A stretch of DNA of 64,000 bases from an uncultured Thermodesulfobacteriota bacterium (GTDB lineage: Bacteria; Desulfobacterota; Anaeroferrophillalia; Anaeroferrophillales; Tharpellaceae), in NCBI GenBank assembly GCA_964457755.1, contig CAYWGC010000001.1, forward strand, positions 128,332 to 192,331, in the 5' to 3' direction. Position 1 is the first letter of the stretch. Each line of letters starts with the position of its first letter. Shown in pieces: positions 10,982-64,000 of the stretch. The position numbers and the translations under genes were made by a program. A model generated the notes under the pieces. That model ran no database searches. It was not told where the DNA came from and saw nothing but the letters and a program-made list of their open reading frames with translations.

Positions 10982-10982
10982 T

Positions 10983-45406: not shown

Positions 45407-45886
45407 ATGAAAAAACTATCCATTTTCTTTACTGCAATAACCCTTCTTTTGCTTTCTCTAAATGCTTTTGCTGATACGATTGCCAGCAAAGATGAATGTG
45501 TCATGAAGTGTCATGAAGCCGCAGCATTGATCAATTCAAAAGGCCTGGAAGAAGCCAAAAAAACCATTGAAGATCCTAATGGCCCTTATGTCTGGAAAGA
45601 TTCCTATGTTTTCTTAATGAATCTTGATGGCAAGATGCTTGCGCACCCTATCAAACCAGAATTAACCCGCAGAAACCATGTGCTGCTAATTACCGATCCC
45701 AAAGATAAAGCGCTCTTTGTTCATTTTGTCAACATGGCCAGAAACCCAGGGCATGGCTGGGTGGAATACCTATGGCCCAAACCCGGCAAAAACACTCCCT
45801 GGAAAAAGGTCACCTACATCTACAGGGTGCCGGGAACAGACCTCTTTGTCGGAGCTGGGGTCTATGTCGGCGGGATGATGTACTGA
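45407..45886 (+). CDS. Secreted single Cache-like sensor domain protein carrying one c-type haem-binding motif (CVMKCH)
   Basis: Signal peptide. CxxCH at residues 31-35. Cache-type motif YVFLMNLDGKMLAHPIKPEL shared with the sensor domains of the neighbouring kinase and PAS protein. Confidence 0.6.
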   Translation: MKKLSIFFTAITLLLLSLNAFADTIASKDECVMKCHEAAALINSKGLEEAKKTIEDPNGPYVWKDSYVFLMNLDGKMLAHPIKPELTRRNHVLLITDPKDKALFVHFVNMARNPGHGWVEYLWPKPGKNTPWKKVTYIYRVPGTDLFVGAGVYVGGMMY

Positions 45887-46067
45887 TCCTATAATTCAAG
45901 CTTGGTGGCTCCCCGACTTTTTACGCCGCACAAAAGGTTTCCTTGGAGGTGTAAAACCATCAAGCTTGACTTATTTACTAAATCGTTATAACAAAAAGAT
46001 TACTAACCAAAATCAGCATAATCCCCCCTCTTCGCTACTGCAGCAGACAAAAACCGTCAGGTGAAAC

Positions 46068-48968
46068 ATGAAACATCGCACCGGTAAAAATTTTTTCCTA
46101 AGAATAATATTTCCGACTCTGCTCGCCATCCTTCTCTTTGTCACCTCCATGTTTTTCATTATCATTCCTTTATTGGAAGGGGAATTGATGGAGGACAAAA
46201 GGGAGCTGATCCGAAAACTCACAAATTCCGCATGGAGCCTTATGGAAGAGCATTACAATCAGGAGAAGGAAGGTCTTTTGACTAAGCCCGAGGCCCAAAA
46301 AAGAGCCATACAGGCAATCCGGAGTCTGCGTTACGGAGATCAAAGAAAGGATTATTTCTGGATAACCGACTCCACTCCAACCTTGATAATGCATCCCTAT
46401 CGGGACGATTTGATCGGCACCGATCTTTCAGAGTACACCGATAAAAATGACAAAAAACTGTTTCGTGAAATAGTCGAGATTGCACAAAAATATGGGGACG
46501 GCTTTATTGACTACTATTGGCAGTGGCAAGATGACCAGACGAAAATCGTCCCTAAAGTCTCCTACGTCAAGAGTTTTACTCCCTGGGATTGGATTATCGG
46601 TACCGGGATCTATCTGGATGATGTCGAAGTGGAAATCGATGCCATGAGCAGCACGATAACCAAGATATCTTTTTTCATAACCCTCCTTATCGCTCTAATG
46701 CTCTTTTACATTACCCTAGAAAGCCGGAAAATTGAGAAAAACCGGGCCCAGGCAGAAACCGGTCTTAAAGAATCCGAGAAAAAATACCGAGCCCTGGTTG
46801 AAGCTTCCACCGAAGGTGTTTTGATGTTCATTGAGGGCCATCTGGTCTACAGCAACAAACCAGTTTTGGAGATGCTTGGCTATAGCGAAGGACTCACTGA
46901 AACCGATCTAGAGGCTATTTTCAGTCGGGATAGAGAGAGTTATCAAGCTGTCCAAGAGGTTCTCAAAAATCCCCAAGCGGGCCGCAATTTTGAAGCTAAA
47001 GTGCTGACAGCCCACAACAACTTGCTGGAGACCCAGATTTCGGCCGCCAACATAACCCTTGAAAACCAGCAAGGGATTATTCTAACCCTCAAAGACATCA
47101 GTAAAAACAAGAAAATAGAGGAAAAATTAGGGCTCAGTCAACAACGCTACCTGTCTCTTACCGACAACCTGCATATTGGAGTTTTTCGCATAGATGCTTC
47201 GAAAAAAGGAAATTTCATTGACGTCAACCCGGCAATGGCCAAGATCTTCGGCTTTGCAAACCACGAACAACTTTTCCAGACCCCCTTTTCACAACTATTT
47301 ACGGAACCCCACGACTGGGAAAATCTGAAGGCCCAAGTCAAAGAAAAAGGCTTTGTGAAAAAGAGTGTTCTCCCCTTAAAGAGAGATGATGGGAGCCTCA
47401 CAGTGATCTCGATTTCAATGCGAAAGATCTTGAATGATGAAGGCATCATTGAAGATTTTGAAGGCATCATTGAAGATATAAGCGAACGAGTAAAGGACGA
47501 ACAGGAGCGTGAAAACCTCATCGTTGAACTCCAGACCTCACTCCTCTTCATCAATCAACCAATCAAAGAATTTACCACCCCGCCCCTGACCTGCAAAATG
47601 AACTCTACTATCCTCAAAGCTGCCGGGATCATGAAAAAGCATCACCAAAGTGCACTTCTTATTCAGTCTGAAACGGGTGATGATCTTGGCATCGTCACCG
47701 ATTACGACATCTCCCATCGAGTCGTCGCCGAAAATATGGCCCTGGAAACTCCAGTTTATCAAATCATGAGCTCCCCGATTATTTCCGTGCCGGATGATGC
47801 TCTGGTCTTCGAAGCCGCCCTGCTCATCCAGGAAGAATTTATCAGCCATTTGTTCACAAAAGGAGAAGATGGCCGGGTCAACGGCATTATTGAAAATCGG
47901 GATCTGCTTCACTTTCACCAATATTCATCTTCACTCCTAATTCGGGAAATCCATGATGCTGAATCGGTCGAAACTCTGGCTGAGGCCCATACGCGACTAC
48001 CGAGACTGATCAAAACCTTGATCGATAGTGGCGCAAAATCGGAAAACATCACCAAACTGATCAGTAAGGTTTCCGATCTGATCAACGAAAAAATCATTGC
48101 TTTTGCAATTGAGGAACTCGGGCCTGCCCCGACCGAGTTTTCATTTTTAGCTTTAGGCAGCGAAGGACGCTCTGAACAAACCTTGGTAACCGACCAGGAT
48201 AATGCCATTATTTATGAAGATGTTGAGGAGGATAAAAAGGAGGCGGTCCAAGCTTATTTCTTGTCGCTGGGGGAAAAAATTTGCAAAAATCTAGATCAGG
48301 TTGGCTATAGTCTCTGCGAAGGCGAAATCATGGCAATGAACCCCAAATGGTGTCAGCCCATCTCCTCTTGGAAAGATTATTTCCATCACTGGATAACCGC
48401 AGCGAGCGCCCAAGACCTACTGGAGATCAATATTTTCTTTGATTTCAGAAGTCTCCATGGAACCCGCCGACTTACCGATGAGTTACGACAATATATTAAT
48501 GACTTACTGCAACAACACACTCTTTTTTTCATCACTTTTGCCCAAAACGTTCTGCAGTATAAGCCACCCATAGATTTTTTCGGCAAGATTGTAGTGGGTT
48601 TGTCGGATGAAAAACCTAAATCTTTCAATATCAAAGACGCTATGAAACTCCTCTTGAACTTTGCCAGAATCTATTCCCTGGAATATAATGTCAGCGAAAC
48701 CAACACCCTTTTACGAATAAAAAAACTCTATGAACTCGGGGCCATCAAAGAAAGCACCTATAGAGAGACCACCGGGGTCTATAATTATCTGATGCAGAGC
48801 CGCTTAAAACATCAGATTATCATGATGGACGGCCACTTACCTCCAGATAATTTCATCGATCCCAAAAGCCTAACCGACATTGAGCTGGCAATGCTCAAGA
48901 GAGCCCTTTCCCATCTGGCTGAAATTCAGGCAAAAGTCAGTTCCCACTTCAAAGTAAGTAGTGGGTAA
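46068..48968 (+). CDS. Multidomain signalling protein: TM-Cache-TM, two PAS domains, tandem CBS domains, and C-terminal DUF294 putative nucleotidyltransferase domains
   Basis: Cache motif YFWITDSTPTLIMHPYRDDLIGTD; PAS region; CBS pair; DUF294-like LALGSEGRSEQTLVTDQDNAIIYED. Confidence 0.7.
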   Translation: MKHRTGKNFFLRIIFPTLLAILLFVTSMFFIIIPLLEGELMEDKRELIRKLTNSAWSLMEEHYNQEKEGLLTKPEAQKRAIQAIRSLRYGDQRKDYFWITDSTPTLIMHPYRDDLIGTDLSEYTDKNDKKLFREIVEIAQKYGDGFIDYYWQWQDDQTKIVPKVSYVKSFTPWDWIIGTGIYLDDVEVEIDAMSSTITKISFFITLLIALMLFYITLESRKIEKNRAQAETGLKESEKKYRALVEASTEGVLMFIEGHLVYSNKPVLEMLGYSEGLTETDLEAIFSRDRESYQAVQEVLKNPQAGRNFEAKVLTAHNNLLETQISAANITLENQQGIILTLKDISKNKKIEEKLGLSQQRYLSLTDNLHIGVFRIDASKKGNFIDVNPAMAKIFGFANHEQLFQTPFSQLFTEPHDWENLKAQVKEKGFVKKSVLPLKRDDGSLTVISISMRKILNDEGIIEDFEGIIEDISERVKDEQERENLIVELQTSLLFINQPIKEFTTPPLTCKMNSTILKAAGIMKKHHQSALLIQSETGDDLGIVTDYDISHRVVAENMALETPVYQIMSSPIISVPDDALVFEAALLIQEEFISHLFTKGEDGRVNGIIENRDLLHFHQYSSSLLIREIHDAESVETLAEAHTRLPRLIKTLIDSGAKSENITKLISKVSDLINEKIIAFAIEELGPAPTEFSFLALGSEGRSEQTLVTDQDNAIIYEDVEEDKKEAVQAYFLSLGEKICKNLDQVGYSLCEGEIMAMNPKWCQPISSWKDYFHHWITAASAQDLLEINIFFDFRSLHGTRRLTDELRQYINDLLQQHTLFFITFAQNVLQYKPPIDFFGKIVVGLSDEKPKSFNIKDAMKLLLNFARIYSLEYNVSETNTLLRIKKLYELGAIKESTYRETTGVYNYLMQSRLKHQIIMMDGHLPPDNFIDPKSLTDIELAMLKRALSHLAEIQAKVSSHFKVSSG

Positions 48969-51922: not shown

Positions 51923-54856
51923 CTACCAGGCTTTATCGTAAATCTCCTTGAAATCAGCCAAAGAGTAGAGAATCGGATTAGCGCCGGAAGCTAGGTCATT
52001 AGACGCATGGGCAACCAGCTCGGGAATATCGTCTTTACTGATTTTGATCCGACAGACATCGGCAAGTTCGGTGACCGTTTTCGGTACTCCGATACTCTCC
52101 ATGAGAATTTTAACCGCTCCGACAGCCTTGTCGGCAGCAGCATCGACACTTAAACCAGCCGTATCGACACCCATCGCCTGAGCAATTTCCGCCATCAGCT
52201 CGGGCACCGCCGACTTGTTCCTGGTCATAACGTAAGGCAGCATAATCGCGTTGGCATTACCATGGGGCATACTGTAAATTGCCCCAAGCGCATGCGCCAA
52301 AGAGTGAGCATTACCAAGTTGGGCGCTGTTAAAGGCGAGACCGGCACTGTACTGAGCCTGACACATAATGTCGCGAGCTTCCAAATCATCGCCATTTTCT
52401 ACAGCGCGGGGCAGAGCTTTAGCGATCATTTTGATGGCACCCAAAGCCAGACCCTGAGCATAGGGAGTCGTAAGCTTAGAGGTGTAGGATTCAATCGCAT
52501 GAGTCAAGGCATCCATCCCCGTCCCGGCCGTGATGTGAGGCGGCATGGAACGAGTCAGTAAAGGATCATTAACGGCAACGATAGGCAATAGTTTTGGGTC
52601 GACAATCGGGGCTTTGAGGTGGCGTTCAGGATCAGAAATAACCGCCACAACTGTGGCCTCAGCTCCGGTTCCCGAAGTCGTATTGACCGCAACCAATACC
52701 GGACCCGACTGCCAAACTCCAAACAGTCCCATGTAATCGACAATACTGCCGGGATTATTGACCATTACGCCGATGGCCTTGGCACAATCATGCGGGCTAC
52801 CGCCGCCAAGAGAAACCAGACAATCACACTTTTCCTGACGAAAAACATCAAGACCTTCCTCAACATTGGTAACTGTAGGATTGGGCTGAGTTCCGTCATA
52901 AACAGCGTAATCGAAAAATTTAGCATCCATAGCATCTGTAAGAATTTCAAGGATGCCAACATCAACCACCCCTTTATCGGTAACAATCAAAGCTTTTTTC
53001 AAACCCATAGCTGCAAGATTATCAGGCACCAGCATATGGCAGCCCTCCCCCATCAAAGCTATCGGTGGGGCAAAGGCCATTTTCGTATTACCCATAATTT
53101 TAAGAATGATGCCAGTATGGTTATGGACTTCGTCAAGGATCTCTTCCGGTACATCGAAAACTGAGTTATGCGGAGGCAGGGCCTCTTTAGTCATCCATTC
53201 CGGCAGGCGATCATCTTTGCTCGTAAAACCGGCTCTTCGATTAAAATCCCGCTCCATCCGCAAAATGCGAATGCCGAAGGCGGCAAACGTATTTTCATTA
53301 AAACCAAGTCCGGTAAAGGCACTCATGCTTTCCAGAATATATTTAATAACTTCGGGTTTGTCTATAGAGGCCATTCCCAAGAAAAGACAAAAACCGGTGG
53401 TATCAAATGCAGCGGCACTGATCTGAGCCACAGCTGAAGGCAAAAGTTGATTATCCTTATCTAAAGGGCCGGAAGATGGCTCCAAGCCAAACAAGTGATT
53501 ACCCAACGTAAAACCGGCAGTATGATCAGCACCCATAGTTGACGTGGCATACGTAACCCCCATCCCCTTCATAGCCCGGGGATCGTAGGCAGGCATCGCC
53601 TGGCCTTTCATCACCGGTGCCCGTTCAACGCCGTAATGTTTAGCCACGGTCGCCGTTCCGGAACCGAATAGGCGGCCTTTATCCGTCCCCTTGCCAATCT
53701 CCAAGAGAAGTTTAAGTACGCCTTGGGCATCACCAAATGCCAGTTCACCGGCTTCCATAAGCACACCCATGGTGCAGCCGGTCTCGATCGTATCCAGACC
53801 AAAATCATCATTTAAGCGATCCATCCGAGCAATCGCATCGAGATCGGCAATCCCGCAATTACCGCCATGCGCCCAGAGGGTTTCATATTCCGGTTGTTTA
53901 CTGACAAAGTTACCATCTTTATCATTGAACGTGCCGGAACATTTAATTATACACCCATTATGACAGGCGTGCGTCGCTGCACCTTTACCGCCGCGCTCCT
54001 CTTCAAGCGCAGACAGGGTTGGCCCGTTGATAGCATCAGCCTGATCAAATTGCCCCTTGGAACAGTTGTAAGCGGGAAAGCATCCGGCTTGATTAGTAAT
54101 ATCCATCAAAATTGCAGTGCCATAAGCCGGCAGGCCCTGGCCGGTCATTTCGGAAGAACGCACAGTCTCTGCCAATTTACGGTTGGCCTCCTTAAAAGCT
54201 TCAGGAGCAACCGGCTTACGCAGAGAGCTACCGTTGGAATCGACCACGATAACCTTAATTCCTTTAGCCCCCATAACTGCACCAACTCCACCTCGAGCCG
54301 CATGCCGGGTTGGCCGAAAATCAGTATCCGTAAAAGCTACAGTAGAGTTAGCAAGACCCTGTTCACCCGCCGGGCCGATGCTGATCATCGCCACCTTGGC
54401 GCCGTGTTCGGTCTTTATTTTTTCAGCCAGATCGTAGTTACCGAGCATCCGATACTCATTACATAAAGAGATCTTAACCCCACTCTTATCGATAATAATT
54501 TTGTAAAGGTCATCATTCTTTCTTTCGCCTTCCAGAACTACGGCTGCATATCCCAACCGAGCTAGATATTGAGAGGCCTGCCCACCGGTGTTGGCCTCCT
54601 TGATGCCGCCGGTTAACGGACTTTTACAACCAACGGAAAGTCTACCCGAAGTAGTCGCCGCCGAACCGCTCATCATACCCGGCGCTAAAATCAGCTTATT
54701 TTCCGAACCTAAAGGGTCACATTGAGGAGGCACCTCCTCCCAAACTATTGTTGAAGTCATGGCCCGCCCGCCAAGGCCAGAGTAACGTCCAACCGAACTG
54801 ATTGTTACAGCGGGGCCACCCATGGTGCCAACATCGATCCGCAAAATATTTTCCAT
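51923..54856 (-). CDS. Fusion protein: tungsten-type aldehyde:ferredoxin oxidoreductase (AOR, N-terminal about 600 aa) plus iron-containing alcohol dehydrogenase (Fe-ADH, C-terminal about 380 aa)
   Basis: Single uninterrupted ORF. AOR motifs (N-terminal LRIDVGT, pterin/4Fe-4S cysteines, ...GxDxxxxG). Then Fe-ADH motifs (GGGSPHDCAKAIG; metal-binding His cluster HAIESYT / GNAHSLAHALG). Start moved to the ATG at 54856 with an AGGAGA RBS. Confidence 0.7.
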   Translation of the reverse strand: MENILRIDVGTMGGPAVTISSVGRYSGLGGRAMTSTIVWEEVPPQCDPLGSENKLILAPGMMSGSAATTSGRLSVGCKSPLTGGIKEANTGGQASQYLARLGYAAVVLEGERKNDDLYKIIIDKSGVKISLCNEYRMLGNYDLAEKIKTEHGAKVAMISIGPAGEQGLANSTVAFTDTDFRPTRHAARGGVGAVMGAKGIKVIVVDSNGSSLRKPVAPEAFKEANRKLAETVRSSEMTGQGLPAYGTAILMDITNQAGCFPAYNCSKGQFDQADAINGPTLSALEEERGGKGAATHACHNGCIIKCSGTFNDKDGNFVSKQPEYETLWAHGGNCGIADLDAIARMDRLNDDFGLDTIETGCTMGVLMEAGELAFGDAQGVLKLLLEIGKGTDKGRLFGSGTATVAKHYGVERAPVMKGQAMPAYDPRAMKGMGVTYATSTMGADHTAGFTLGNHLFGLEPSSGPLDKDNQLLPSAVAQISAAAFDTTGFCLFLGMASIDKPEVIKYILESMSAFTGLGFNENTFAAFGIRILRMERDFNRRAGFTSKDDRLPEWMTKEALPPHNSVFDVPEEILDEVHNHTGIILKIMGNTKMAFAPPIALMGEGCHMLVPDNLAAMGLKKALIVTDKGVVDVGILEILTDAMDAKFFDYAVYDGTQPNPTVTNVEEGLDVFRQEKCDCLVSLGGGSPHDCAKAIGVMVNNPGSIVDYMGLFGVWQSGPVLVAVNTTSGTGAEATVVAVISDPERHLKAPIVDPKLLPIVAVNDPLLTRSMPPHITAGTGMDALTHAIESYTSKLTTPYAQGLALGAIKMIAKALPRAVENGDDLEARDIMCQAQYSAGLAFNSAQLGNAHSLAHALGAIYSMPHGNANAIMLPYVMTRNKSAVPELMAEIAQAMGVDTAGLSVDAAADKAVGAVKILMESIGVPKTVTELADVCRIKISKDDIPELVAHASNDLASGANPILYSLADFKEIYDKAW

Positions 54857-55269
54857 TCCGATTCTCCTTTTTCCCTGGAATATAAAAAAAACTACGGCGG
54901 GCGCGGCCCGCATCCCAATCAAGTGATTTTAATTAAATTTGAAAAAATACGAACTTTGCTTTCGCCCTCTTGAGAAGTAACTTTAACAGTAAAAGACAAA
55001 ACAATAATATCTACCCATCTACCAACGGCAACATATATGCCACCCATTACAGACCGCTCGACCGACCATTCTACAACATTGTAAAGACGGGATTTCAATT
55101 TACAAGGGTGTCATTAATGACCCTATCTAATAAGAAAATTGCTTTACACATTTGATTTTACAGATAAATACCAGACATTGCCAAAAATGGCGCCAAACGC
55201 ACCCATTATCAATAAAAAAGAAGAAACGGACCACCGAACTATCAGAAAAAGGCGGCTGCCAGGGAGGGA

Positions 55270-55551
55270 TCAAGCTGGAAGTTTATTAATATCTGTAACA
55301 TCTTGTTGCAGAATTTCAATTCCAATACTAGTTACAATCTGATCCGGGGCCAAATCTTTTTCGACCTGACCCATGATGCCGAATATATTTGAAATGCCAC
55401 AGGACACCTGGGTTTTAACAACATTCCTGATAACCGCAACAGTTTTTTCAGAAGATCTTTTTCTCAGGGTTATGGCTGCCATTGGCCCAGATGCCGAACC
55501 GCCGATAATTACTACATCACTTTTTTCATTACTTTCTCTATATAATTTCAA
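55270..55551 (-). pseudogene. N-terminal 93-aa fragment of an FAD-dependent pyridine-nucleotide-disulfide oxidoreductase (truncated)
   Basis: Rossmann dinucleotide motif DVVIIGGSASGPMAA but only 93 codons; about 350 nt of non-coding DNA downstream. Confidence 0.5.
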
Positions 55552-55559: not shown

Positions 55560-56309
55560 TTAGATGTATAACCCACCATTACAGGAAATAACCTGACCTG
55601 TGATGTAAGACGAATCATCGGAAGAGAGGAATTTGACCAAGTTGGCAACATCCTGAGAGCTTCCGGCACGACCTAAGGGGATCCCCTTGATGATAGACTT
55701 TTTAATATGATCCGGAATAGACTCAGTCATCGGGGTTTCAATAAAACCCGGGGCAACGGCATTTACCATAATTTGATACCGGGCCAGCTCTTTGGCCAGG
55801 GTTTTTGTCATACCGATAACCCCGGCCTTGGAAGCTGCATAGTTGACCTGTCCCACGTTTCCGGTGAGGGCGGTTACTGATGTCAGATTGACAATCCTGC
55901 CGGAGCCTTGCTCCTTCATTATGGCCGCCGCCGCACGGATACAGTAAAAAACCCCTTTGAGGTTAACATCCATAACCTGGTCCCACTCCTGATCACTCAT
56001 TTGCAAAAGCATGTTATCCCTGGTGATACCGGCATTATTAACCAGTATATCCAGATGCTTGAACTCACTTTTAATCTTTGAGAACATCGCATTCACATCC
56101 TCTATCACCCCAACACTCCCGCAACAAACAAGAACTTTTCCGCCAAAACTCTCAATATCCTTGACCAATTTTTCAGCAGCATCAAGATCAACATCGTTAA
56201 TAACAATATCCGCCCCGGCTTGCGCTAGAGTTTTGGCAATGGCCTTACCAATCCCTCTACCACATCCGGTTACCAGAGCGGTTTTGCCGGATAATGATTT
56301 TCTTGTCAT
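55560..56309 (-). CDS. fabG: 3-oxoacyl-[ACP]/acyl-CoA reductase, SDR family (FabG-like)
   Basis: TGxxxGIG cofactor motif (VTGCGRGIGKAIA), NNAG, catalytic YAASKAG. Confidence 0.85.
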   Translation of the reverse strand: MTRKSLSGKTALVTGCGRGIGKAIAKTLAQAGADIVINDVDLDAAEKLVKDIESFGGKVLVCCGSVGVIEDVNAMFSKIKSEFKHLDILVNNAGITRDNMLLQMSDQEWDQVMDVNLKGVFYCIRAAAAIMKEQGSGRIVNLTSVTALTGNVGQVNYAASKAGVIGMTKTLAKELARYQIMVNAVAPGFIETPMTESIPDHIKKSIIKGIPLGRAGSSQDVANLVKFLSSDDSSYITGQVISCNGGLYI

Positions 56310-56356: not shown

Positions 56357-57199
56357 TCAATCTGTGGGGGCAGCCTTTTCTTTGTCGGATTTTATGCGTA
56401 TTTCAACTTTTTGTCGATTGATCTTACCCATTCCAAACCACCGGAAAAGGATATCAACCAGGCGTGGGAATATTACACCAAGTATTATTAACGGCTTAAC
56501 CGGCATACTGTTTACAAATACCCGACTTTTATATCTTGAGGTGCAATTAATAACTTCGTCTGCAACCTCCCGAGTTGTGCAAGATCCGAGAAAAGCTGGA
56601 TAGTTCACCCCAATATTAAAAATCATACCGGCGTCAGCAACACCTCCCGGATTAACCGAAGAAACTTTTACGCCGGTCTCGTGTAACTCCTGGCGCAGAG
56701 CGTCGGTCCACATCTCCATTCCACCTTTTGACGTATCATAAAGAGAGTTGTAGATTTCACCCAACTTACCAGCCAGTGAGCTGATATTGATGATGTGTCC
56801 TTTTCTTCGAGCCAGCATCTTCGGCAGCAACAACTTTGTCATTTCCATGGGAGCGATCAGGTTGACATTAATGATAGAGGTGATGTCCTCTAAGTCATAC
56901 TTTACAAAGTAACCATATTTCTCCAGCCCTGCATTGTTAACCAGAACATCAATATGGGGGGCGAGTTCATTTATCTGCTCGACCAAATTTCTAATTTGCG
57001 ATACTTCTCCCAGGTCAAAGGCAATGGCGTGGGCTTTGCCACCCAAGGCTTCAACCCGTTCACAGGTTTTTTGTAGACCTTCCATCGATCTCGCGACCAG
57101 AATCAAATTGGCCTTTTTTTTAGCAAATTCTTCGGCAATATTAACCCCGAGTCCGCGACTCGCGCCGGTAACGATCACCCAGGCATTTTCTAAATTCAT
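56357..57199 (-). CDS. SDR-family oxidoreductase (280 aa)
   Basis: VTGASRGLG, NNAG, and the Y..SK catalytic pair YDTSKGG. Confidence 0.8.
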   Translation of the reverse strand: MNLENAWVIVTGASRGLGVNIAEEFAKKKANLILVARSMEGLQKTCERVEALGGKAHAIAFDLGEVSQIRNLVEQINELAPHIDVLVNNAGLEKYGYFVKYDLEDITSIINVNLIAPMEMTKLLLPKMLARRKGHIINISSLAGKLGEIYNSLYDTSKGGMEMWTDALRQELHETGVKVSSVNPGGVADAGMIFNIGVNYPAFLGSCTTREVADEVINCTSRYKSRVFVNSMPVKPLIILGVIFPRLVDILFRWFGMGKINRQKVEIRIKSDKEKAAPTD

Positions 57200-57296: not shown

Positions 57297-58562
57297 TTAC
57301 AAGGTTTCGCATTCGAACCAGTAGCGAGCATTTTCCAGGGTCTTCAAACCATATCCACCCATCCAGAGGCTAATAATCTTACTGTCCCGCCAATGCTTCT
57401 CAAGCCCGTACTCTCGGGCGTACCCGGCTGAACTCATAAAATCCATGGCTCGACTGCAAACCCGCTCTACGGCAATACTTGCATGCACGGCCAAGCCTCT
57501 GCTTTTAAGGGTGAATCCTTCATCCCAAGATTTTGTGCCATAAATTTCAGGATGATCCCATTCCCTTATATAGGCCCACATCCAGGCGGATGTCGATTCA
57601 ATGTTGATGGCTACTTCAGAAAGCATGTCAGCACAAATGCTGTGTTCTTTTAGAGGTTTGCCGGCAACGATTCGTTCGGTAGTCCATGTTTTAATAATAT
57701 CATAAACCCCTTTCATAATCCCCACAGCCATGGCTGCAGCCCCGATTTGGCCCATGCTGACGGTTCGCAACCAGTACTTTGCATCGTCACCCGGTCCGTG
57801 CAAGCGATATCGTTTGGGGATCCTGACATGGTCGAACCAGACATCCGAGTTCATATCCGCAGACATCCCGGCCTTATGATAAGGATTACCAACCGCGACC
57901 CCTTCACTGTCACGCGGAACCAGGAAAAGGCCGAAGTCATTAAGATCCGTACTTCCTTTTTTGGTTGTTGCTATTACGACATAGAGGTCTCCGACCGTAC
58001 CGGTGTTGGTGGCCCAGATTTTATGCCCGTTGATCACCCATTCATTGCCTTCAAGGGTGGCCGTAGTCTGTATGGTTTTCCCTTTCAAAACCCCAAGGTT
58101 TTCAACGTCAGCCCCACTTGCGGGTTCGGTGATCAGGTGGCTACCCATATATAATTCTTTGCCACAGAATTTAGGAGCAAACTCCTTAAGCAGTTCCATA
58201 TTTCTTGTCGGTTTCATCAAGATCGGTACAAGTCCCCAAGTTGAACACAAGCAGGCCGTGGCAAATCCTGAATCAATTCGACTCAGCTCTTCAGCAACCA
58301 TGCAGGTCAGGGCCATATATTCGTTTTCCGGTACATCTTGACCACCAAATTCAGCCGGGAAAAAAGCGGCATTAAGGCCGAAATCAACCAAGATCTCTTT
58401 TAAGAGCGGCTCGACCAGCTTGTGATCTTTCCAGTCTTCATCTACGTGCTCTACGATTGGTTTCAATCGGTCTTCCGCCCATTTTCTAACAGTGAGCCGC
58501 ATTTGCGTTTGCAACTCTGAGCCCCACTCCTTCGGCCTAATAAAATCATCAATACCCGGCAT
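57297..58562 (-). CDS. Acyl-CoA dehydrogenase family protein
   Basis: ACAD N-terminal, middle and C-terminal domain motifs. Start moved to the ATG at 58562 (GGAGA RBS) rather than 58598. Confidence 0.8.
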   Translation of the reverse strand: MPGIDDFIRPKEWGSELQTQMRLTVRKWAEDRLKPIVEHVDEDWKDHKLVEPLLKEILVDFGLNAAFFPAEFGGQDVPENEYMALTCMVAEELSRIDSGFATACLCSTWGLVPILMKPTRNMELLKEFAPKFCGKELYMGSHLITEPASGADVENLGVLKGKTIQTTATLEGNEWVINGHKIWATNTGTVGDLYVVIATTKKGSTDLNDFGLFLVPRDSEGVAVGNPYHKAGMSADMNSDVWFDHVRIPKRYRLHGPGDDAKYWLRTVSMGQIGAAAMAVGIMKGVYDIIKTWTTERIVAGKPLKEHSICADMLSEVAINIESTSAWMWAYIREWDHPEIYGTKSWDEGFTLKSRGLAVHASIAVERVCSRAMDFMSSAGYAREYGLEKHWRDSKIISLWMGGYGLKTLENARYWFECETL

Positions 58563-58886
58563 ATCAAGTCTCCACTTTTTGTTAGCTGTAGCCAACATGG
58601 CCCAGCATCAGGTTTTAAAGGCAGCCTAATTTGTCCCGCTAAACAGCAACCTTAACTTCATTATATCTATGACTGTATTTAGTTTGCAGGAAATGTGCCA
58701 GGCCGACTTATTCAAAAATTAACCTATAAATTCAACTTGTTACTTAACTAAAAGCGGAATATGGAATGCATTTGAAATTTCAATTAAACAGGACAGAAAT
58801 GACCCGAAGCAGGCATGCCGGTTCTCAACCCATTACAATGACAAGACATATTGCGATATGCCAATTACGGCCCACTCATGGGTCAT

Positions 58887-61800
58887 TTACAACCCATCTT
58901 CGTGAGATAGGAGTCCGCATGATTTCATCTTGCGATAAAGCGTCTTGCGGCCTATGCCGAGAATTGATGCGACTCGAGTCCGGCTCCACTGATTCTCTTC
59001 CAGAAGACGGCCAATATATCTTTTCTCAAACTCCACCACAACTTCATGTAAAGGACGGTCGGAAGATTCCACAGGTTCTATATTCAGCTCAACTGAGTCA
59101 GCCGGACTCTCGTCAGAATCAGCAATCCCCAAAAAATCCAGACGATTAAGGGCGACATACCGGTGCAATGTGTTTTGTAACTCCCGAACATTCCCGGACC
59201 ACTCATAGTCCAACATCCGGGAGACAACTTGGGCGGGCAAATGAGGCTCAGTTTTTTCATACCCGTTTGCATGCCAAAAATGTTCGATGAGCAGAGGGAT
59301 ATCTTCACGTCTTTCGCGCAGGGATGGCATATGTATAGGGAAGATATTAACCCGATAATAAAAATCTTCCCGCATCAGGCCTTTCACAACCTGATTTTTC
59401 AGACCCAGATTAGTTGCGGCGACAATGCGAAAGTCGGGTTTTTTTAACTCGCGACTTCCCAAAGGCGTAAAACCTCCCCCCTCCAGAGCCCGCAAAAGTT
59501 TAACTTGTAAATTGAGGCTGAGTTCACCTAATTCATCCAAAAACAGGGTACCCTTGTCAGCCAGCTCCAAAAAACCCTCTTTATCTGTAACGGCACCGGT
59601 AAAAGCCCCTTTTTTGTATCCGAAAAACTCACTTTCGAGTAAATTTTCCGGGATCGCACCACAGTTAACCGGAAGAAATCGGCCGCCTTTACGATCGCTC
59701 ATATCGTGAATAGCGCGAGCCGCCAACTCTTTGCCCGTACCTGATTTTCCATATATTATTACCGGCACATCAGTAGCTGCAGCCTTAATAATAAGTTCGT
59801 AAATTTCCTGCATAATCGCACTTTTGCCTATGATGTTGGCGAATTTATAGCGATCTTTAATGTTGGAACGTAAACGAATATTTTCTTTTCTCAGGTATTC
59901 TTCCCGACCCTGCAAAGCTTCCACAGCCTGCTTACATTCCGTTATATCAACAAAGAATCCTTCGATCAGTTTTATTGCTCCATTCTCCTCATAGACCGTT
60001 CGTGCATGCAGGGAAGCCCACATAACGCTTCCATCTTTACGCCGAAACTGAACTTCCAAGCCGGATATAGCTTGTTCACTCTGGATGAGATCGAGAAATT
60101 TATGCCGATCCGCCGAAGCCACGTACAACTGTTTGCCAATGTCATCGACACTATCTAACAACTCTTTGGTAGAGTCGTAACCCAAGAGCCGGGCCATAGC
60201 TGGATTGGCACTTAAAAACTTACCGTCCGGCGTAATTTGTAAAATACCTTCCACCGCATTTTCGAAAATACTGCGGTATTGTGCTTCGGTGGTTTTAAGG
60301 TTTGAAAAGAGTTTGGCATTTTCGACCGAAATGGCAATCTGAGTAGCCAGGATTTTTATTACTTCAAGCCTCTCAATCGTAAAAACCCCGGCCGACAAGC
60401 TGTTTTCCAGATAGATTATACCAGTCAGTTCCATCTTATGGATAATCGGGACGCACAAGATTGACCTAGAATTATTTCCTCTAATATATGGATCTTGCAC
60501 AAACCGTCCTTCGCGGAAAGCGTCGTATAAAACCACATTTTCCATGGTTCGAACCACATGCTCGACAATCTCCAAGCTTATATCTTTAAAATCTTCAACC
60601 GGAACTCCCGATCGCGAGAGCACTATCTCCTGGTCCAGAGTACTGTAAGCTTCGACCTCCAGACCGCCACTCTGCTTAAACATAAGAACACCTTTTTGGG
60701 CTCCAACATTCTCCATCAAGACTTTCATGAAAATATTGATAAGCTCGTCAATAAGGATCTCACTTGAGACGGCCTGGGAGGCTTTTATAACCGAGACCAG
60801 GTCGATGCCATCGAGCCGGGATTGTGCGGCGGCACCGGTGAAAGCAATTTCACCTTTGGCAATATAGTTAATCGCAGAATCGCTATTTTTCATCAGGTCG
60901 GGGTATTTTTTTTCCAGATGTTTTACCTTTCGCAGAGCCCCCCATTGCCTATAGCTGCTCCAAGCTTTATGCATATAGAGCCGGGCCAGAGTATCTTTAC
61001 CTTTATTCAGCCAGAACTTTGCGGTCAGTTCAAAGGAGAGAGCTTCTTCATTGATATAACCATTTTTATGGGCCTCAGCTATGGCCAGGTCGTAATGCTC
61101 GAAAGCCTCCATCTCACACCCCAAGATACGCAGACGCTCAGCTTCCACTAAAAGGTATTTATGACGATGATTCATCGGGGCATGATTGGCCCAAATTTCC
61201 ATCTTGCCTTGATTCTGAACCACTTTTCGTAATATTTCAGCCTTTTCCCCTTGCGCGGCCTTTGCATAGCAGGCCAAACGAATCAAAGAATCATAGAAGT
61301 AAAAAACCGGGACAACAAACATGGCGAGGGTGCCATCAAGGTAGCTCTCGGCCTGTCGAGCATCCTCCAATGCAAGTTCATATTCTGCAAACAGATAACC
61401 GAGAATCATCTTATTTAGGTAGAAATAGTTGAGTGCGTGTCGATCTTCAACTTGTCGATGCTGAGCCGGCATTACCCGTTCATCATACACCTCCCCCAGC
61501 AAGATGTGAGGCTCCCCCTTGCCTCCTCTCAGGTTTAAAACCGCCTGTTGAAAAACCGAATGAAAATGCAAAACGGTCACCTGCCGATGTTGCTTTAGCG
61601 CCAGATTGAAACGCTCCATCTCCTCCACTACCCAGGCCAGATCCTGACCTGATAAATAGGCGTGGGAGCATCGATTAAAGGCGCAGAAATCGGCAAATTG
61701 AAGGTCGCCGGTCGCCATGCCGCTCTGATACCCAGCCAGTAGAGGATCAAGCGTTTCACGAAGATGTTCCCTGTTATGACGAATATGGACATTAAAAACC

Positions 61801-64000
61801 TCGATGTTTTTACAACGGAATTCACTGCAATCTTTCTTTTCGGCAAGTTCCATTCCCAACTTGCCATATTGATAGCCGGTATCGATATCTGCATAAAGAC
61901 CGGTCAAGATAAAACCATATACCGAATATAAAAAAGCGGACTCGGGTAAGTTGCCGTAAATAACCGACAAGGTGACGGTTTTAAAGACCATCAACGGAAA
62001 AAGACGCGGACGGGAAAAATAGACCGGAACACAAATATCGGACAACAACTTAAATGCAGCCTTTTTAACGAGATCAGTCATACTTGGCATTTGCACCAGT
62101 TCCTCAATCGTTTTTTTCTGCAAAAGTGATCTGGTCTCCACAAAGGCAGCCTGTACATCCTTGATCTCGGGGTGCTCAGGAAAACAGATACCCAACAGCT
62201 TCAGTATTGCAAAGCCCGAATCTATCGCCTCCGTTAACCGATTCTGGGCAAGATAGGCCTGGATACGGCTCCTGTAAGCGCTGACCTGATCAAGAGGATT
62301 CCTAGAATTCCTTTTTACCTCTCCAAACAGAACTTCTATCTCGTCTAGATTCACGTTCATATAGGCTGTCTGTAAGGTTTCCGTGTAGAGAGATAAGGTC
62401 AGATCATAATTAGTTTTCCAAGCCTCTGAAGAGAGGAGCCCCAAGCCGGTCTTTGCATACTGAAAAGCATGTTCGAATGCTGCAGAATTCTTGGCTTGCC
62501 GGCTGGCGATCAAGTTAAATTCCGCCACCTGGTTACGTTCATCCCGATCTTTGATAAGTTTTTCGGAGATATTCAGATGACGAACAATTTCAAAAACTTC
62601 ATCCTCAAGTTTCCCGGGATTGGTAGATTTAATTTTATTCCGACCAAGCTCCAGGTGTATCTCTCTACTCCACTCTTGATCAGTCATCTCAAATATGGCC
62701 TGCTGGATACGATCATGCAAAAACTTGAACGTGACAACTTCATCAGAACCTGTACCTGCATTAACACCTTGATAGTCAACACTGGAAATAAGTAAGCCAT
62801 TTTCGACCGCGGGCAAGATCTCCTGCAACAAGCGGTTGAAACCTTTTTCCATAATCGCATCCAGGGTAACAAGGTCAAATCGATTCCCGATACAGGCCCC
62901 TACTTTAACAATACTCAGAGTGTCGGCAGGAAGTCGTTCAACAGTTCTTATAAGCAAATCAACTACGTTTTCCGTAACGCTCAACTCCTTGATCTTCTGC
63001 AGATCCCATTGCCAACGCCGATTATCCAACGCAAACCACAACAAACCTTCCTGAAATATTGCATTAAGAAAACAGGTAATAAAGAACGGATTGCCATTGG
63101 TTTTTTCCCATACCGTACGCGTCAGAAAACTGACTTGGGATTTTTTCAATTTAAGTGTATCAGCGATAAATTGGGTGATATCGATCAAATCCAATGGCTC
63201 TAAAACAATCTCCTCGACACAGCCCCCTTCAGACCGCAACACTTCAATGGTATCATTCAATGCATTAAATTGGGCCACTTCATTTGAACGATAGGCACAA
63301 ATCAATAAAATGTACTTCGTCTCTTCATCCGCCATAACCGAGCTAAGCAGCTTAAGTGAAGCGACATCGGCCCATTGCAAGTCATCGAGAAAGACCACCA
63401 GAGAATGACCGGCCTCTCCAAAAATCCTGAAAAACTTTGTAATGGTATGAATGAACCGGTTTTGTGACTCTATCGGTTTCAATTCTTCAATCGCTGGTTG
63501 AGGGCCAATGATTAATTCCATTTCCGGATAAATATCGATAATTATCTGCCCGTTAGCACCGAGCGCAGTTAATATTTTCTCTTTCCAGCGCTTGAGATTA
63601 TCCGGGCTCTCTCTTAAAAGCTGACGGATCAGGGAAACAAAAATATCAACCAAGACACCATAGGGAATGTGTTGGGCGGCCCGATTAAATTTACCCGACA
63701 AAAGAAAACCCATTTTTTGTGGTGTCAGAAAATAAATTTCATTTACGATTGAGGTTTTTCCGATGCCAGCGTCACCGGATATCAGGATTAATTCCTTACG
63801 ACCTTGGCATACATTCTCAAAACTCTTAGAAAGAAGGCTTAATTCCCGATTGCGCCCATAAAGTTTTTCCGGGATTTTTAAGAGGTGAGAAAAATCAAAC
63901 TGACCAAGGCTGAAGTCATCTATCCAACCGCTTGCCGCCAACCGGCTAAGACATTTTTCCAGGTCTGCGACCAGACCGGAAGCACTTTGATAGCGCTGCT
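58887..64000 (-). CDS. Giant multidomain sigma-54-dependent regulator, partial (its N-terminus lies beyond the window): C-terminal end of a Ser/Thr protein-kinase domain, AAA_16/STAND NTPase, TPR-like helical array, GAF, PAS, AAA+ sigma-54 activator, Fis HTH
   Basis: The frame stays open to the window end and encodes ...QQRYQSASGLVADLEKCL (kinase-domain C-terminus) before MAASGWIDD. STAND P-loop GDAGIGKTS. GAF and PAS regions. Sigma-54 module GKSGTGKE / GAFTGA / ESEFFG. Terminal HTH. Confidence 0.75.
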   Translation of the reverse strand, partial: QRYQSASGLVADLEKCLSRLAASGWIDDFSLGQFDFSHLLKIPEKLYGRNRELSLLSKSFENVCQGRKELILISGDAGIGKTSIVNEIYFLTPQKMGFLLSGKFNRAAQHIPYGVLVDIFVSLIRQLLRESPDNLKRWKEKILTALGANGQIIIDIYPEMELIIGPQPAIEELKPIESQNRFIHTITKFFRIFGEAGHSLVVFLDDLQWADVASLKLLSSVMADEETKYILLICAYRSNEVAQFNALNDTIEVLRSEGGCVEEIVLEPLDLIDITQFIADTLKLKKSQVSFLTRTVWEKTNGNPFFITCFLNAIFQEGLLWFALDNRRWQWDLQKIKELSVTENVVDLLIRTVERLPADTLSIVKVGACIGNRFDLVTLDAIMEKGFNRLLQEILPAVENGLLISSVDYQGVNAGTGSDEVVTFKFLHDRIQQAIFEMTDQEWSREIHLELGRNKIKSTNPGKLEDEVFEIVRHLNISEKLIKDRDERNQVAEFNLIASRQAKNSAAFEHAFQYAKTGLGLLSSEAWKTNYDLTLSLYTETLQTAYMNVNLDEIEVLFGEVKRNSRNPLDQVSAYRSRIQAYLAQNRLTEAIDSGFAILKLLGICFPEHPEIKDVQAAFVETRSLLQKKTIEELVQMPSMTDLVKKAAFKLLSDICVPVYFSRPRLFPLMVFKTVTLSVIYGNLPESAFLYSVYGFILTGLYADIDTGYQYGKLGMELAEKKDCSEFRCKNIEVFNVHIRHNREHLRETLDPLLAGYQSGMATGDLQFADFCAFNRCSHAYLSGQDLAWVVEEMERFNLALKQHRQVTVLHFHSVFQQAVLNLRGGKGEPHILLGEVYDERVMPAQHRQVEDRHALNYFYLNKMILGYLFAEYELALEDARQAESYLDGTLAMFVVPVFYFYDSLIRLACYAKAAQGEKAEILRKVVQNQGKMEIWANHAPMNHRHKYLLVEAERLRILGCEMEAFEHYDLAIAEAHKNGYINEEALSFELTAKFWLNKGKDTLARLYMHKAWSSYRQWGALRKVKHLEKKYPDLMKNSDSAINYIAKGEIAFTGAAAQSRLDGIDLVSVIKASQAVSSEILIDELINIFMKVLMENVGAQKGVLMFKQSGGLEVEAYSTLDQEIVLSRSGVPVEDFKDISLEIVEHVVRTMENVVLYDAFREGRFVQDPYIRGNNSRSILCVPIIHKMELTGIIYLENSLSAGVFTIERLEVIKILATQIAISVENAKLFSNLKTTEAQYRSIFENAVEGILQITPDGKFLSANPAMARLLGYDSTKELLDSVDDIGKQLYVASADRHKFLDLIQSEQAISGLEVQFRRKDGSVMWASLHARTVYEENGAIKLIEGFFVDITECKQAVEALQGREEYLRKENIRLRSNIKDRYKFANIIGKSAIMQEIYELIIKAAATDVPVIIYGKSGTGKELAARAIHDMSDRKGGRFLPVNCGAIPENLLESEFFGYKKGAFTGAVTDKEGFLELADKGTLFLDELGELSLNLQVKLLRALEGGGFTPLGSRELKKPDFRIVAATNLGLKNQVVKGLMREDFYYRVNIFPIHMPSLRERREDIPLLIEHFWHANGYEKTEPHLPAQVVSRMLDYEWSGNVRELQNTLHRYVALNRLDFLGIADSDESPADSVELNIEPVESSDRPLHEVVVEFEKRYIGRLLEENQWSRTRVASILGIGRKTLYRKMKSCGLLSHEDGL

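What the first reader, a model, noticed from the sequence alone, without database searches (positions are those of the whole stretch)
51923..54856. Single-polypeptide fusion of tungsten aldehyde:ferredoxin oxidoreductase and Fe-alcohol dehydrogenase
One uninterrupted 977-codon reading frame joins a complete AOR-family domain to a complete Fe-ADH domain. Such a fusion would channel carboxylate to aldehyde to alcohol (or the reverse) without releasing the toxic aldehyde. It sits next to an acyl-CoA ligase, a crotonase, two SDRs and an acyl-CoA dehydrogenase, so it may belong to an alcohol/acid interconversion or degradation pathway. AOR and Fe-ADH are usually separate proteins, so this architecture is uncommon.
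Basis: partly seen in the sequence, partly recalled or inferred. Interest (0 to 1): 0.6.

Follow-up and report, generated by a model that had tools for sequence, protein, structure and literature searches.

The report
Natural tungsten AOR–iron ADH fusion enzyme
One gene really does encode an intact pterin-dependent aldehyde oxidoreductase joined by a 12-residue linker to an intact iron alcohol dehydrogenase; it probably converts an alcohol to its acid without releasing the aldehyde and feeds fatty-acid breakdown, and I found no published description of such a fusion.

Summary
Window 51923-54856 (minus strand) is an uninterrupted 977-codon gene with a good RBS. Residues 1-580 are a complete AOR/WOR-family domain and residues 593-977 a complete group-III Fe-ADH, joined by about 12 residues. 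All cofactor and catalytic residues of both halves are present and invariant in 16 full-length homologs (60-88% identity, no junction gaps), so it is not a frameshift or assembly artefact. Eleven fusion-bearing loci were examined. An AMP-forming acyl-CoA ligase is directly adjacent in six and two genes away in a seventh. Beta-oxidation genes, a DUF1302/DUF1329/BNR/MMPL uptake set, sulfatases or an alkylsulfatase, sigma-54 activators, and pterin-cofactor synthesis genes recur. The best reading is a two-step oxidation, alcohol to aldehyde (NAD+) to acid (ferredoxin), feeding CoA activation and beta-oxidation. The substrate is probably a hydrophobic alcohol released from esters, but this is the weakest inference. 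AOR/Fe-ADH fusions arose several times, in both domain orders, including in Heimdallarchaeota. Two stand-alone AORs nest inside this fusion clade, probably by secondary fission. No paper describing the fusion was found. Verdict: real, a new variant of a known kind, moderately interesting.

The parts
51923..54856 (-). AOR-ADH fusion gene, 977 codons plus stop (stop codon 51923-51925)
   Evidence: ORF; four Pfam domains; 100%-identical database protein P0001 and 20 fusion clusters
54239..54850 (-). AOR domain 1 (AFOR_N, residues 3-206); carries the pterin/Mg contacts R72 and N89
   Evidence: Pfam E 2e-54; mapped to P. furiosus AOR R76 and N93; invariant in A1
53120..54187 (-). AOR domains 2 and 3 (AFOR_C, residues 224-579); carries E325, D350, D355, H445, D485 and C490
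   Evidence: Pfam E 8e-76; alignment to 1aor, 9mqx and 9g7j; invariant columns
53939..53965 (-). [4Fe-4S] cysteine motif C298-x3-C302-x3-C306; the fourth ligand is C490
   Evidence: Invariant in the fusions and shared with stand-alone clade members; spacing differs from C-x2-C-x3-C in P. furiosus AOR
53081..53116 (-). Inter-domain linker, residues 581-592 (TGIILKIMGNTK)
   Evidence: Typical stand-alone AORs end at ...VFNW, aligned to residues 577-580. This segment plus the ADH is the only fusion-specific addition. It is ungapped in 16 homologs
52562..53068 (-). Fe-ADH N-terminal (NAD-binding) domain, residues 597-765; D627 and GGGSPHD 684-690
   Evidence: Pfam E 5e-45; D627 aligns to Asp39 of Z. 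mobilis ADH2; invariant
51926..52531 (-). Fe-ADH C-terminal (metal-binding) domain, residues 776-977; D782, H786, H851, H865
   Evidence: Pfam E 2e-50; aligns residue for residue to the ADH2 (3owo) metal ligands D194, H198, H263, H277; invariant
55028..55042 (-). Sigma-54-type -24/-12 box TGGCATATATGTTGC, about 170 nt upstream of the fusion ATG
   Evidence: 1 mismatch to TGGCAC-N5-TTGC; aligned with the equivalent box in L090
50315..51877 (-). AMP-forming acyl-CoA ligase, 45 nt downstream of the fusion
   Evidence: Pfam AMP-binding; NF004837 long-chain-fatty-acid-CoA ligase 467.7 bits against a cutoff of 476; 81-82% orthologs directly after the fusion in L003 and L006
49263..50072 (-). Enoyl-CoA hydratase (crotonase family)
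   Evidence: Pfam ECH_1; NCBIfam enoyl-CoA hydratase models, all below their cutoffs
55560..56309 (-). FabG-type SDR (3-oxoacyl reductase or 3-hydroxyacyl dehydrogenase-like)
   Evidence: NF004198 315.4 bits against a cutoff of 296
56357..57199 (-). Second SDR
   Evidence: Pfam adh_short
57297..58598 (-). Acyl-CoA dehydrogenase
   Evidence: Pfam ACAD N, M and C domains
58686..58700 (-). Second sigma-54-type box TGGCACATTTCCTGC, about 90 nt upstream of the ACAD gene
58887..63941 (-). 1684-aa sigma-54 activator (AAA_16, GAF, PAS, sigma-54 AAA+, HTH_8); probable regulator of the cluster
   Evidence: Pfam; GAF/PAS sigma-54 activators also flank the fusion in L002, L003 and L090

Best explanation
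The gene encodes a genuine bifunctional enzyme. The C-terminal NAD-dependent iron alcohol dehydrogenase oxidises a primary alcohol to its aldehyde. The N-terminal tungsto- (or molybdo-) pterin aldehyde:ferredoxin oxidoreductase oxidises that aldehyde irreversibly to the carboxylate and passes the electrons through its [4Fe-4S] cluster to a ferredoxin. Joining the two on one chain keeps the aldehyde concentration low, which pulls the unfavourable first step and limits toxicity, and it yields NADH and reduced ferredoxin in a fixed 1:1 two-electron ratio. The acid is then activated by the adjacent AMP-forming acyl-CoA ligase and degraded by the neighbouring ACAD, hydratase and SDR genes. Expression is probably sigma-54 dependent through the giant activator upstream. 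The likely substrates are hydrophobic, medium- to long-chain alcohols released from esters such as sulfate or wax-type esters. Shown here: the architecture, intact active sites, conservation, and gene context. Inferred: direction, substrate class, channelling, the metal, and the electron acceptor.
For: Architecture and intact sites. AOR residues R72, N89, E325, D350, D355, H445, D485 and C298/C302/C306/C490 are invariant, as are ADH residues D627, GGGSxHD, D782, H786, H851 and H865. The gene is real and under selection: 16 full-length homologs at 60-88% identity with no junction gaps. Link to acid activation: an AMP-ligase is directly adjacent in the window, L003, L004, L006, L089 and L090 and two genes away in L088. 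It is an ortholog (81-82%) in some loci and a non-ortholog (35%) in L004. Beta-oxidation genes occur in the window, L003, L004, L088, L089 and L090. Hydrophobic or ester substrate: DUF1302-DUF1329-BNR-MMPL lies immediately upstream in L002, L003, L086 and L087, and these genes are co-fit for growth on Tween 20 and butyl stearate in Pseudomonas. Four sulfatases flank the fusion in L001 and an SdsA-type alkylsulfatase in L002. The closest unfused AOR, in cultured Desulforhopalus singaporensis, sits in a syntenic cluster of MMPL, sulfatases, Zn-ADH, AOR, SDR and ligase. Functional pterin enzyme: MoaD/MoeB follow the fusion in L004 and L089, and in L004 an oxyanion ABC transporter, MoeA and MoaA follow as well. 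Precedent: unfused Fe-Adh plus Aor interconvert ethanol and acetate in Solidesulfovibrio and give NADH plus reduced ferredoxin to a confurcating hydrogenase. Regulation: sigma-54 boxes occur in every locus that has a sigma-54 activator and in none of the TetR-associated loci.
Against: There are no biochemical data, so direction, metal and substrate are all inferred. The ADH half is most similar to short-chain or diol enzymes (Z. mobilis ADH2, methanol DH, DhaT, FucO), which argues against long-chain specificity. The window itself has no sulfatase or DUF1302/MMPL set next to the fusion. No ferredoxin gene is consistently adjacent. The AF2 model was too poor (pLDDT 68, pTM 0.48) to show whether the two active sites face each other. 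The AOR half also carries no fusion-specific loops of the kind that build the AdhE/BdhE channel. L001 has two WS/DGAT wax-ester synthase genes 5-9 kb away, which would fit the reductive direction.
Confidence: 0.6

Rival explanations
1. Same bifunctional enzyme working in the reductive direction. Reduced ferredoxin drives acid to aldehyde on the AOR half and NADH drives aldehyde to alcohol on the ADH half. The alcohol serves as a fermentative electron sink or supplies fatty alcohols for wax esters.
For: The AOR plus ADH route from acid to alcohol is established in acetogens, and in S. fructosivorans during pyruvate fermentation. L001 carries two WS/DGAT genes downstream of the fusion. Both reactions are reversible in principle.
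Against: The most conserved neighbour is an AMP-forming ligase that consumes free acid, together with beta-oxidation genes. That context is hard to reconcile with net acid reduction. The WS/DGAT genes occur in one locus only and are separated from the fusion by an opposite-strand gene and several small ORFs.
Confidence: 0.2
2. Same chemistry, but the substrates are short-chain alcohols or diols (ethanol, propanol, propanediols), as for Desulfovibrio Adh/Aor. The hydrophobic-uptake and sulfatase neighbours would be coincidental.
For: The ADH half is closest to ADH2, FucO, DhaT and methanol DH. The stand-alone clade includes Desulfovibrionaceae AORs. Eight of 77 stand-alone loci have an Fe-ADH within the fetched flanks of up to 10 kb, five of them next to the AOR.
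Against: MMPL/DUF1302/DUF1329/BNR, sulfatases, an alkylsulfatase, a 2,4-dienoyl-CoA-reductase-like gene and a ligase scoring just under the long-chain-fatty-acid-CoA ligase cutoff recur in independent loci.
Confidence: 0.3
3. The fusion is an artefact: two adjacent genes merged by a sequencing or assembly error or a missed stop codon.
For: Unfused adjacent AOR and Fe-ADH genes do exist in related genomes (L009, L010, L042, L067, L084).
Against: The same ungapped 977-980 aa frame is found in about 20 independent 90% clusters from NCBI, JGI, ENA and Logan assemblies, down to 60% identity. The linker shows a conserved hydrophobic pattern. The adjacent unfused ADHs are only 30-45% identical to the fused ADH.
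Confidence: 0.02
4. One half is non-catalytic, for example an ErcA-like regulatory ADH domain or an AOR domain that only relays electrons.
For: NCBIfam lists the ErcA regulatory ADH-like model among the hits, at 320 bits against a cutoff of 550.
Against: Every metal, NAD, pterin, cluster and catalytic residue is invariant across the family. Fe-ADH has no flavin, so it cannot accept single electrons from a [4Fe-4S] cluster.
Confidence: 0.05

Closest known systems
Unfused Fe-ADH plus tungsten AOR pathway of Desulfovibrio-type sulfate reducers and acetogens (e.g. Adh3929 and Aor2487 of Solidesulfovibrio fructosivorans, PMC10084766)
   Same: Same two enzyme families and the same two consecutive reactions, with NAD(H) for the alcohol step and ferredoxin for the aldehyde step. 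The AOR half is 56-59% identical to the stand-alone ~578-aa AORs of Desulfobacterales, Syntrophobacteraceae and Desulfovibrionaceae.
   Different: Here the two are one polypeptide with a 12-residue linker. The context points to acyl-CoA formation and beta-oxidation rather than acetate excretion.
AdhE and BdhE (ALDH-ADH and ADH-ALDH fusions; PMC12454647)
   Same: A Fe-ADH domain fused to the enzyme that handles the aldehyde on the other side. Fusion is recurrent and convergent, in both domain orders. The proposed benefit is aldehyde channelling and detoxification.
   Different: The partner is a pterin/[4Fe-4S] AOR that makes free acid with ferredoxin, not a CoA-acylating NAD-dependent ALDH. The NF010378 AdhE model matches only the ADH half (252.8 bits against a cutoff of 951). 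No fusion-specific interface loops were detected in the AOR half.
Pyrococcus furiosus AOR (1aor) and bacterial AORs (9mqx, 9g7j, 8c0z)
   Same: Three-domain fold signature and all cofactor ligands.
   Different: About 25-40 residues shorter at the C-terminus of the AOR part. The cluster motif is C-x3-C-x3-C instead of C-x2-C-x3-C. The active-site segment reads MGADHTAG instead of RGGCHIKN, so P. furiosus K450 is Ala here. These differences are clade-wide and not fusion-specific.
LaoABC long-chain alcohol oxidation system of Pseudomonas aeruginosa (from my own knowledge; not checked here)
   Same: Proposed physiological role: oxidising long-chain alcohols released from alkyl sulfates or alkanes to fatty acids.
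   Different: Unrelated enzymes (a GMC-type oxidoreductase plus an ALDH) working aerobically. The comparison is functional only.

Membership tests
AOR/WOR family (tungsten-containing aldehyde:ferredoxin oxidoreductases) | AFOR_N plus AFOR_C three-domain architecture | tested here: met
   Pfam 184.7 and 256.1 bits, far above the cutoffs; PDB hits 9mqx 5e-77 and 1aor 3e-67
AOR/WOR family (tungsten-containing aldehyde:ferredoxin oxidoreductases) | Four cysteine ligands of the [4Fe-4S] cluster | tested here: met
   C298, C302, C306 and C490 are invariant. The spacing is C-x3-C-x3-C rather than C-x2-C-x3-C, and this is clade-wide
AOR/WOR family (tungsten-containing aldehyde:ferredoxin oxidoreductases) | Pterin/Mg-binding residues and catalytic Glu/His (P. 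furiosus R76, N93, D338, D343, D489, E313, H448) | tested here: met
   R72, N89, D350, D355, D485, E325 and H445 are all invariant. P. furiosus K450 is Ala447 here
AOR/WOR family (tungsten-containing aldehyde:ferredoxin oxidoreductases) | Contains tungsten (rather than Mo) and oxidises aldehydes with ferredoxin | not testable with these tools
   Only indirect support: MoaD/MoeB follow the fusion in L004 and L089, plus an oxyanion ABC transporter, MoeA and MoaA in L004. The binding protein hits both PBP_like_2 and SBP_bac_11, so W versus Mo is open
Group III iron-containing alcohol dehydrogenases | Fe-ADH plus ADH_Fe_C domains with the GGGSxxD dinucleotide motif | tested here: met
   Pfam 153.5 and 171.8 bits; GGGSPHD 684-690 invariant
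Group III iron-containing alcohol dehydrogenases | Asp/His/His/His metal site (ADH2 D194, H198, H263, H277) | tested here: met
   D782, H786, H851 and H865 align without gaps to 3owo and are invariant
Group III iron-containing alcohol dehydrogenases | Asp39-type NAD (not NADP) preference | tested here: met
   D627 aligns to position 39 of ADH2 and is invariant. Cofactor preference is inferred, not measured
Lactaldehyde reductase FucO (TIGR02638 / NF007911 equivalogs) | Score above the curated equivalog cutoff | tested here: not met
   381.9 against 523 bits and 334.6 against 537 bits
AdhE bifunctional acetaldehyde-CoA/alcohol dehydrogenase | N-terminal CoA-acylating ALDH domain | tested here: not met
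   No Aldedh domain. NF010378 matches only model positions 480-864, at 252.8 against 951 bits
AorABC-type NAD-linked AOR (Aromatoleum) | Adjacent AorA polyferredoxin and AorC FAD subunit genes | tested here: not met
   No Fer4 or FAD subunit genes flank the fusion in the window. Fer4 proteins appear only in L005 and L088

The most novel reading that the evidence does not exclude
AOR-ADH fusions are a previously unrecognised, convergently evolved class of 'ferredoxin-type AdhE'. In this reading they are self-contained alcohol-to-acid (or acid-to-alcohol) modules with a true intramolecular or inter-subunit aldehyde tunnel, and possibly higher-order assemblies, because both parent enzymes self-associate. 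In this clade they would serve as the anaerobic counterpart of long-chain alcohol oxidation systems, degrading sulfated or esterified lipids in marine and hydrothermal sediments.
Probability: 0.25. Interest if true: 0.75.

Novelty: new variant of a known kind. Interest (0 to 1): 0.55.

Why it matters
AOR plus ADH is the route by which anaerobes interconvert carboxylic acids and alcohols, and it is the route used for bio-alcohol production from acids with reduced ferredoxin. A natural single-chain version gives a compact, stoichiometrically fixed catalyst. It is also a natural experiment on aldehyde channelling, parallel to AdhE/BdhE but with a completely different aldehyde-handling partner. 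Its repeated origin, in both domain orders and in Bacteria and Heimdallarchaeota, together with an apparent secondary fission, makes it a useful system for studying how fusion of consecutive enzymes evolves. The gene context also suggests an undescribed anaerobic route for alcohols released from sulfate or fatty esters in sediments. That route can be tested in the cultured Desulforhopalus singaporensis, which has the unfused equivalent.

Tried and rejected
- **AlphaFold2 on the 16-sequence fusion alignment.** Mean pLDDT 68 and pTM 0.48, with AOR domains 2/3 and the junction below 50. It is unusable for inter-domain geometry, so no fold search was run.
- **Exact look-up of the window's own protein (P0001).** No contig was returned, so the source genome was not identified. 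Cluster mates are MAGs labelled Pseudomonadota, Deltaproteobacteria or Ca. Tharpellaceae.
- **Riboswitch or attenuator in the 5' leader.** This was prompted by a perfect GC hairpin plus T-run at 54911-54885. Rfam gave no hit near any gathering score. The leader folds no better than shuffles, z = +1.29. The hairpin is an insertion absent from the orthologous leaders. Rejected as a conserved element.
- **Simple read-through of an AOR-then-ADH gene pair as the origin.** The downstream-type neighbour ADHs are only 30-34% identical to the fused ADH, and the upstream-type ones 44-45%. No direct precursor pair was found.
- **First sigma-54 scan script.** It had an index error and was repeated correctly. 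The window-wide count of 2-mismatch sigma-54 matches is not above chance, so the argument rests on position, strand and co-occurrence with activators.
- **First tree script.** It timed out and was redone with numpy distances.
- **Literature searches for a described AOR-ADH fusion.** Nothing was found. This includes the 2026 92-clade WOR classification and the 2025 ALDH-ADH fusion paper. The held library is incomplete, so this is absence of evidence only.
Full report
**1.
The minus strand carries one uninterrupted ORF from 54922 to 51923. It has an AGGAG box 7 nt upstream and coincides with the N-terminus of every homolog. Pfam places AFOR_N at residues 3-206, AFOR_C at 224-579, Fe-ADH at 597-765 and ADH_Fe_C at 776-977, each 120-230 bits above its cutoff. 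Solved structures match the two halves separately. Z. mobilis ADH2, methanol dehydrogenases, DhaT and FucO match residues ~595-977 (E 1e-80 to 1e-90). AORs 9mqx, 9g7j, 1aor and 8c0z match residues ~5-565 (E 1e-64 to 1e-77).

**2. It is not an artefact, and both halves look catalytically competent.**
A search of 5.8 billion proteins returned an identical protein plus about 20 further 90%-identity clusters of 977-980 aa. These come from NCBI, JGI, ENA and Logan assemblies and go down to 60% identity. An alignment of 16 of them has no gap anywhere near the junction.

The HMMER alignment to P. furiosus AOR maps the key residues as follows, and all are invariant:

| Role | P. furiosus AOR | This protein |
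|---|---|---|
| Pterin/Mg contacts | R76, N93, D338, D343, D489 | R72, N89, D350, D355, D485 |
| Catalytic pair | E313, H448 | E325, H445 |
| Fourth cluster cysteine | C494 | C490 |

The other three cluster cysteines are invariant too, but spaced C298-x3-C302-x3-C306 rather than C-x2-C-x3-C. The active-site segment reads MGADHTAG, so P. furiosus K450 is Ala here. Both peculiarities are shared with stand-alone relatives, so they are features of the clade and not of the fusion.

In the ADH half, D627 aligns to Asp39 of ADH2, the NAD-preference position. GGGSPHD lies at 684-690. D782, H786, H851 and H865 align without gaps to the four metal ligands of ADH2. All are invariant.

**3. Anatomy of the junction.**
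Typical stand-alone AORs of this clade are 578-580 aa and end '...DxVFNW'. This aligns with '...DEVHNH' at residues 575-580 of the fusion. The ADH homology starts at about residue 593. The linker is therefore about 12 residues (TGIILKIMGNTK, nt 53081-53116), with a conserved hydrophobic pattern. Compared with stand-alone AORs, the AOR half has no fusion-specific insertions or deletions. AlphaFold2 on the shallow family alignment gave pLDDT 68 and pTM 0.48, so it says nothing reliable about how the domains pack.

**4. Context.**
In the window the cluster reads, all on the minus strand:
- a 1684-aa sigma-54 activator
- ACAD
- SDR
- FabG-type SDR
- a 93-aa Pyr_redox remnant
- the fusion
- an acyl-CoA ligase, 45 nt downstream
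- an enoyl-CoA hydratase

Eleven distinct fusion-bearing loci were examined (window, L001-L006, L086/L087, L088-L090). Recurring features:
- **Acyl-CoA ligase.** An AMP-forming ligase is directly adjacent in six loci and two genes away in a seventh. In L003 and L006 it is an 81-82% ortholog. In L004 it is a different ligase (35%) on the other side of the fusion, which suggests the association is selected rather than inherited.
- **Beta-oxidation genes.** ACAD, thiolase, FadB-like, MaoC, ECH and a 2,4-dienoyl-CoA-reductase-like gene occur in six loci.
- **Uptake set.** DUF1302, DUF1329, BNR and MMPL lie immediately upstream in L002, L003 and L086/L087. In Pseudomonas these genes are co-fit for growth on Tween 20 and butyl stearate.
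- **Sulfatases.** Four formylglycine-type sulfatases surround the fusion in L001, and an SdsA-type alkylsulfatase follows it in L002.
- **Cofactor genes.** In L004 and L089 the fusion is followed by MoaD and MoeB. In L004 an oxyanion ABC transporter, MoeA and MoaA follow as well, which fits an active pterin enzyme.
- **Regulation.** Sigma-54 activators flank the fusion in four loci, and each of these has a -24/-12-like box in the expected intergenic region. The window has two such boxes, and the one at 55028-55042 aligns with that of L090. The TetR-associated loci have none.

**5. Mechanism.**
Fe-ADH has no flavin, so it cannot exchange single electrons with a [4Fe-4S] cluster. Each half must therefore use its own redox partner: NAD(H) for the ADH, and ferredoxin or an equivalent carrier for the AOR.

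From established thermodynamics of the two couples (my own knowledge), alcohol oxidation with NAD+ is unfavourable and aldehyde oxidation with ferredoxin is strongly favourable. Coupling the two on one chain would pull the first step and keep the toxic aldehyde low. Unfused Fe-Adh plus Aor are proposed to do this in Solidesulfovibrio fructosivorans, in both directions, handing NADH and reduced ferredoxin to a confurcating hydrogenase.

The consistent presence of an acid-consuming ligase and beta-oxidation genes favours the oxidative, catabolic direction here. The reductive direction remains possible, and the wax-ester synthases near L001 would fit it. Substrate class is the weakest inference. 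The context points to hydrophobic alcohols released from esters, whereas the ADH half resembles short-chain and diol enzymes most closely.

**6. Evolution.**
An exhaustive HMMER search of 1.84 billion representatives collapses this family into one 50% cluster, but it also reveals other AOR/Fe-ADH fusions:
- **AOR then ADH:** P0158, P0167 and P0211/P0323, about 950 aa.
- **ADH then AOR:** P0200, P0206 (26 members) and P0249, about 1004-1029 aa. P0249 includes a Candidatus Heimdallarchaeota protein.

Both domains of our family are closer to stand-alone proteins (AOR 54-64%, ADH 40-48%) than to the matching domains of those other fusions (23-39%). That points to several independent fusion events.

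Stand-alone clade members have an Fe-ADH within the fetched flanks (up to 10 kb) in 8 of 77 loci. In five of these the ADH lies next to the AOR, in either order.

In an NJ tree of AOR domains, the fusions plus two stand-alone AORs form a clade in 200 of 200 bootstraps, and the fusions alone are never monophyletic. The two stand-alones are P0022 from cultured Desulforhopalus singaporensis and P0157. Both keep short tails beyond the usual C-terminus, which suggests secondary loss of the ADH domain. The Desulforhopalus gene lies in a cluster syntenic with fusion locus L001 and has a Zn-ADH immediately upstream. The same logic is therefore kept there with a different, unfused alcohol dehydrogenase.

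**7. Comparison with known systems, and novelty.**
By every sequence criterion tested, the protein belongs to both the AOR/WOR family and the group-III Fe-ADH family. It is not AdhE (no ALDH domain). It does not reach the FucO equivalog cutoffs. It has no AorABC-type partner genes. Functionally it is the ferredoxin-linked analogue of AdhE/BdhE, whose convergent fusion and channelling were described in 2025.

No paper describing a natural AOR-ADH fusion was found. This includes the 2026 classification of WORs into 92 clades. Database annotators label these proteins only 'iron-containing alcohol dehydrogenase' or 'aldehyde:ferredoxin oxidoreductase'. I rate it a new variant of a known kind. It is real, conserved and mechanistically sensible, and it matters for enzymology, biocatalysis and the study of fusion evolution. 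It is not conceptually surprising, because consecutive pathway enzymes often fuse.

Noticed in passing
window 2405-7618 (+): MtrCAB-like extracellular electron-transfer module: a 696-aa multihaem cytochrome, a 295-aa paired-CXXCH/NrfB-like cytochrome, and a 670-aa MtrB/PioB outer-membrane porin.
   Followed up: no
window 24285-29360 (+): Further multihaem cytochromes, including a 1205-aa protein with an MtrC/MtrF-like domain.
   Followed up: no
window 55270-55551 (-): A 93-aa ORF resembling only the N-terminal FAD-binding part of a Pyr_redox_2 oxidoreductase (E 2.6e-4, below the Pfam cutoff). It lies between the FabG-type SDR and the fusion and is probably a gene remnant.
   Followed up: partly
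window 54885-54911 (-): A perfect 6-GC-pair hairpin followed by a T-run, inside the predicted 5' leader between the sigma-54 box and the fusion's RBS. There is no Rfam match, the leader fold is not better than shuffles, and the element is absent from the orthologous leaders of L090 and L006. It is a window-specific insertion of unknown role.
   Followed up: yes
window 58887-63941 (-): An unusually large (1684 aa) sigma-54 activator with an N-terminal AAA_16 (STAND-like) ATPase region ahead of GAF, PAS, the sigma-54 AAA+ domain and HTH_8. The activators next to other fusion loci are only ~640-690 aa.
   Followed up: partly
window 41122-48968 (+): A signalling and transport block: a Cache histidine kinase, a sigma-54 response regulator, a GPR1/FUN34/YaaH-family (acetate/succinate channel-like) protein, a small Cache protein, and a 966-aa sCache-PAS-CBS-DUF294 nucleotidyltransferase.
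   Followed up: no
P0249/P0319 (Ca. Heimdallarchaeota), P0200, P0206: Reverse-order ADH-then-AOR fusions of 1004-1029 aa with a full-length classical AOR half. One family is from Asgard archaea and another has 26 cluster members.
   Followed up: partly
L091/L092 (Desulforhopalus singaporensis GCA_900104445.1), 1-15123: A cluster of MMPL, SDR, an SRPBCC-like protein, two sulfatases, Zn-ADH, an unfused AOR (64% to the fusion), SDR, an AMP-ligase and a sulfatase. It is syntenic with fusion locus L001 and offers a cultured handle on the pathway.
   Followed up: partly
P0264 (791 aa) and P0299 (867 aa): Other Fe-ADH fusions seen among the hits: FIST_N/FIST_C sensor domains fused to a Fe-ADH, and an ADH-then-ALDH (BdhE-like order) fusion.
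   Followed up: no
L005/L007 4421-6280: One fusion locus also carries a second, 619-aa AOR (28% identical), together with a POR-like 2-oxoacid:ferredoxin oxidoreductase and a 306-aa polyferredoxin.
   Followed up: no
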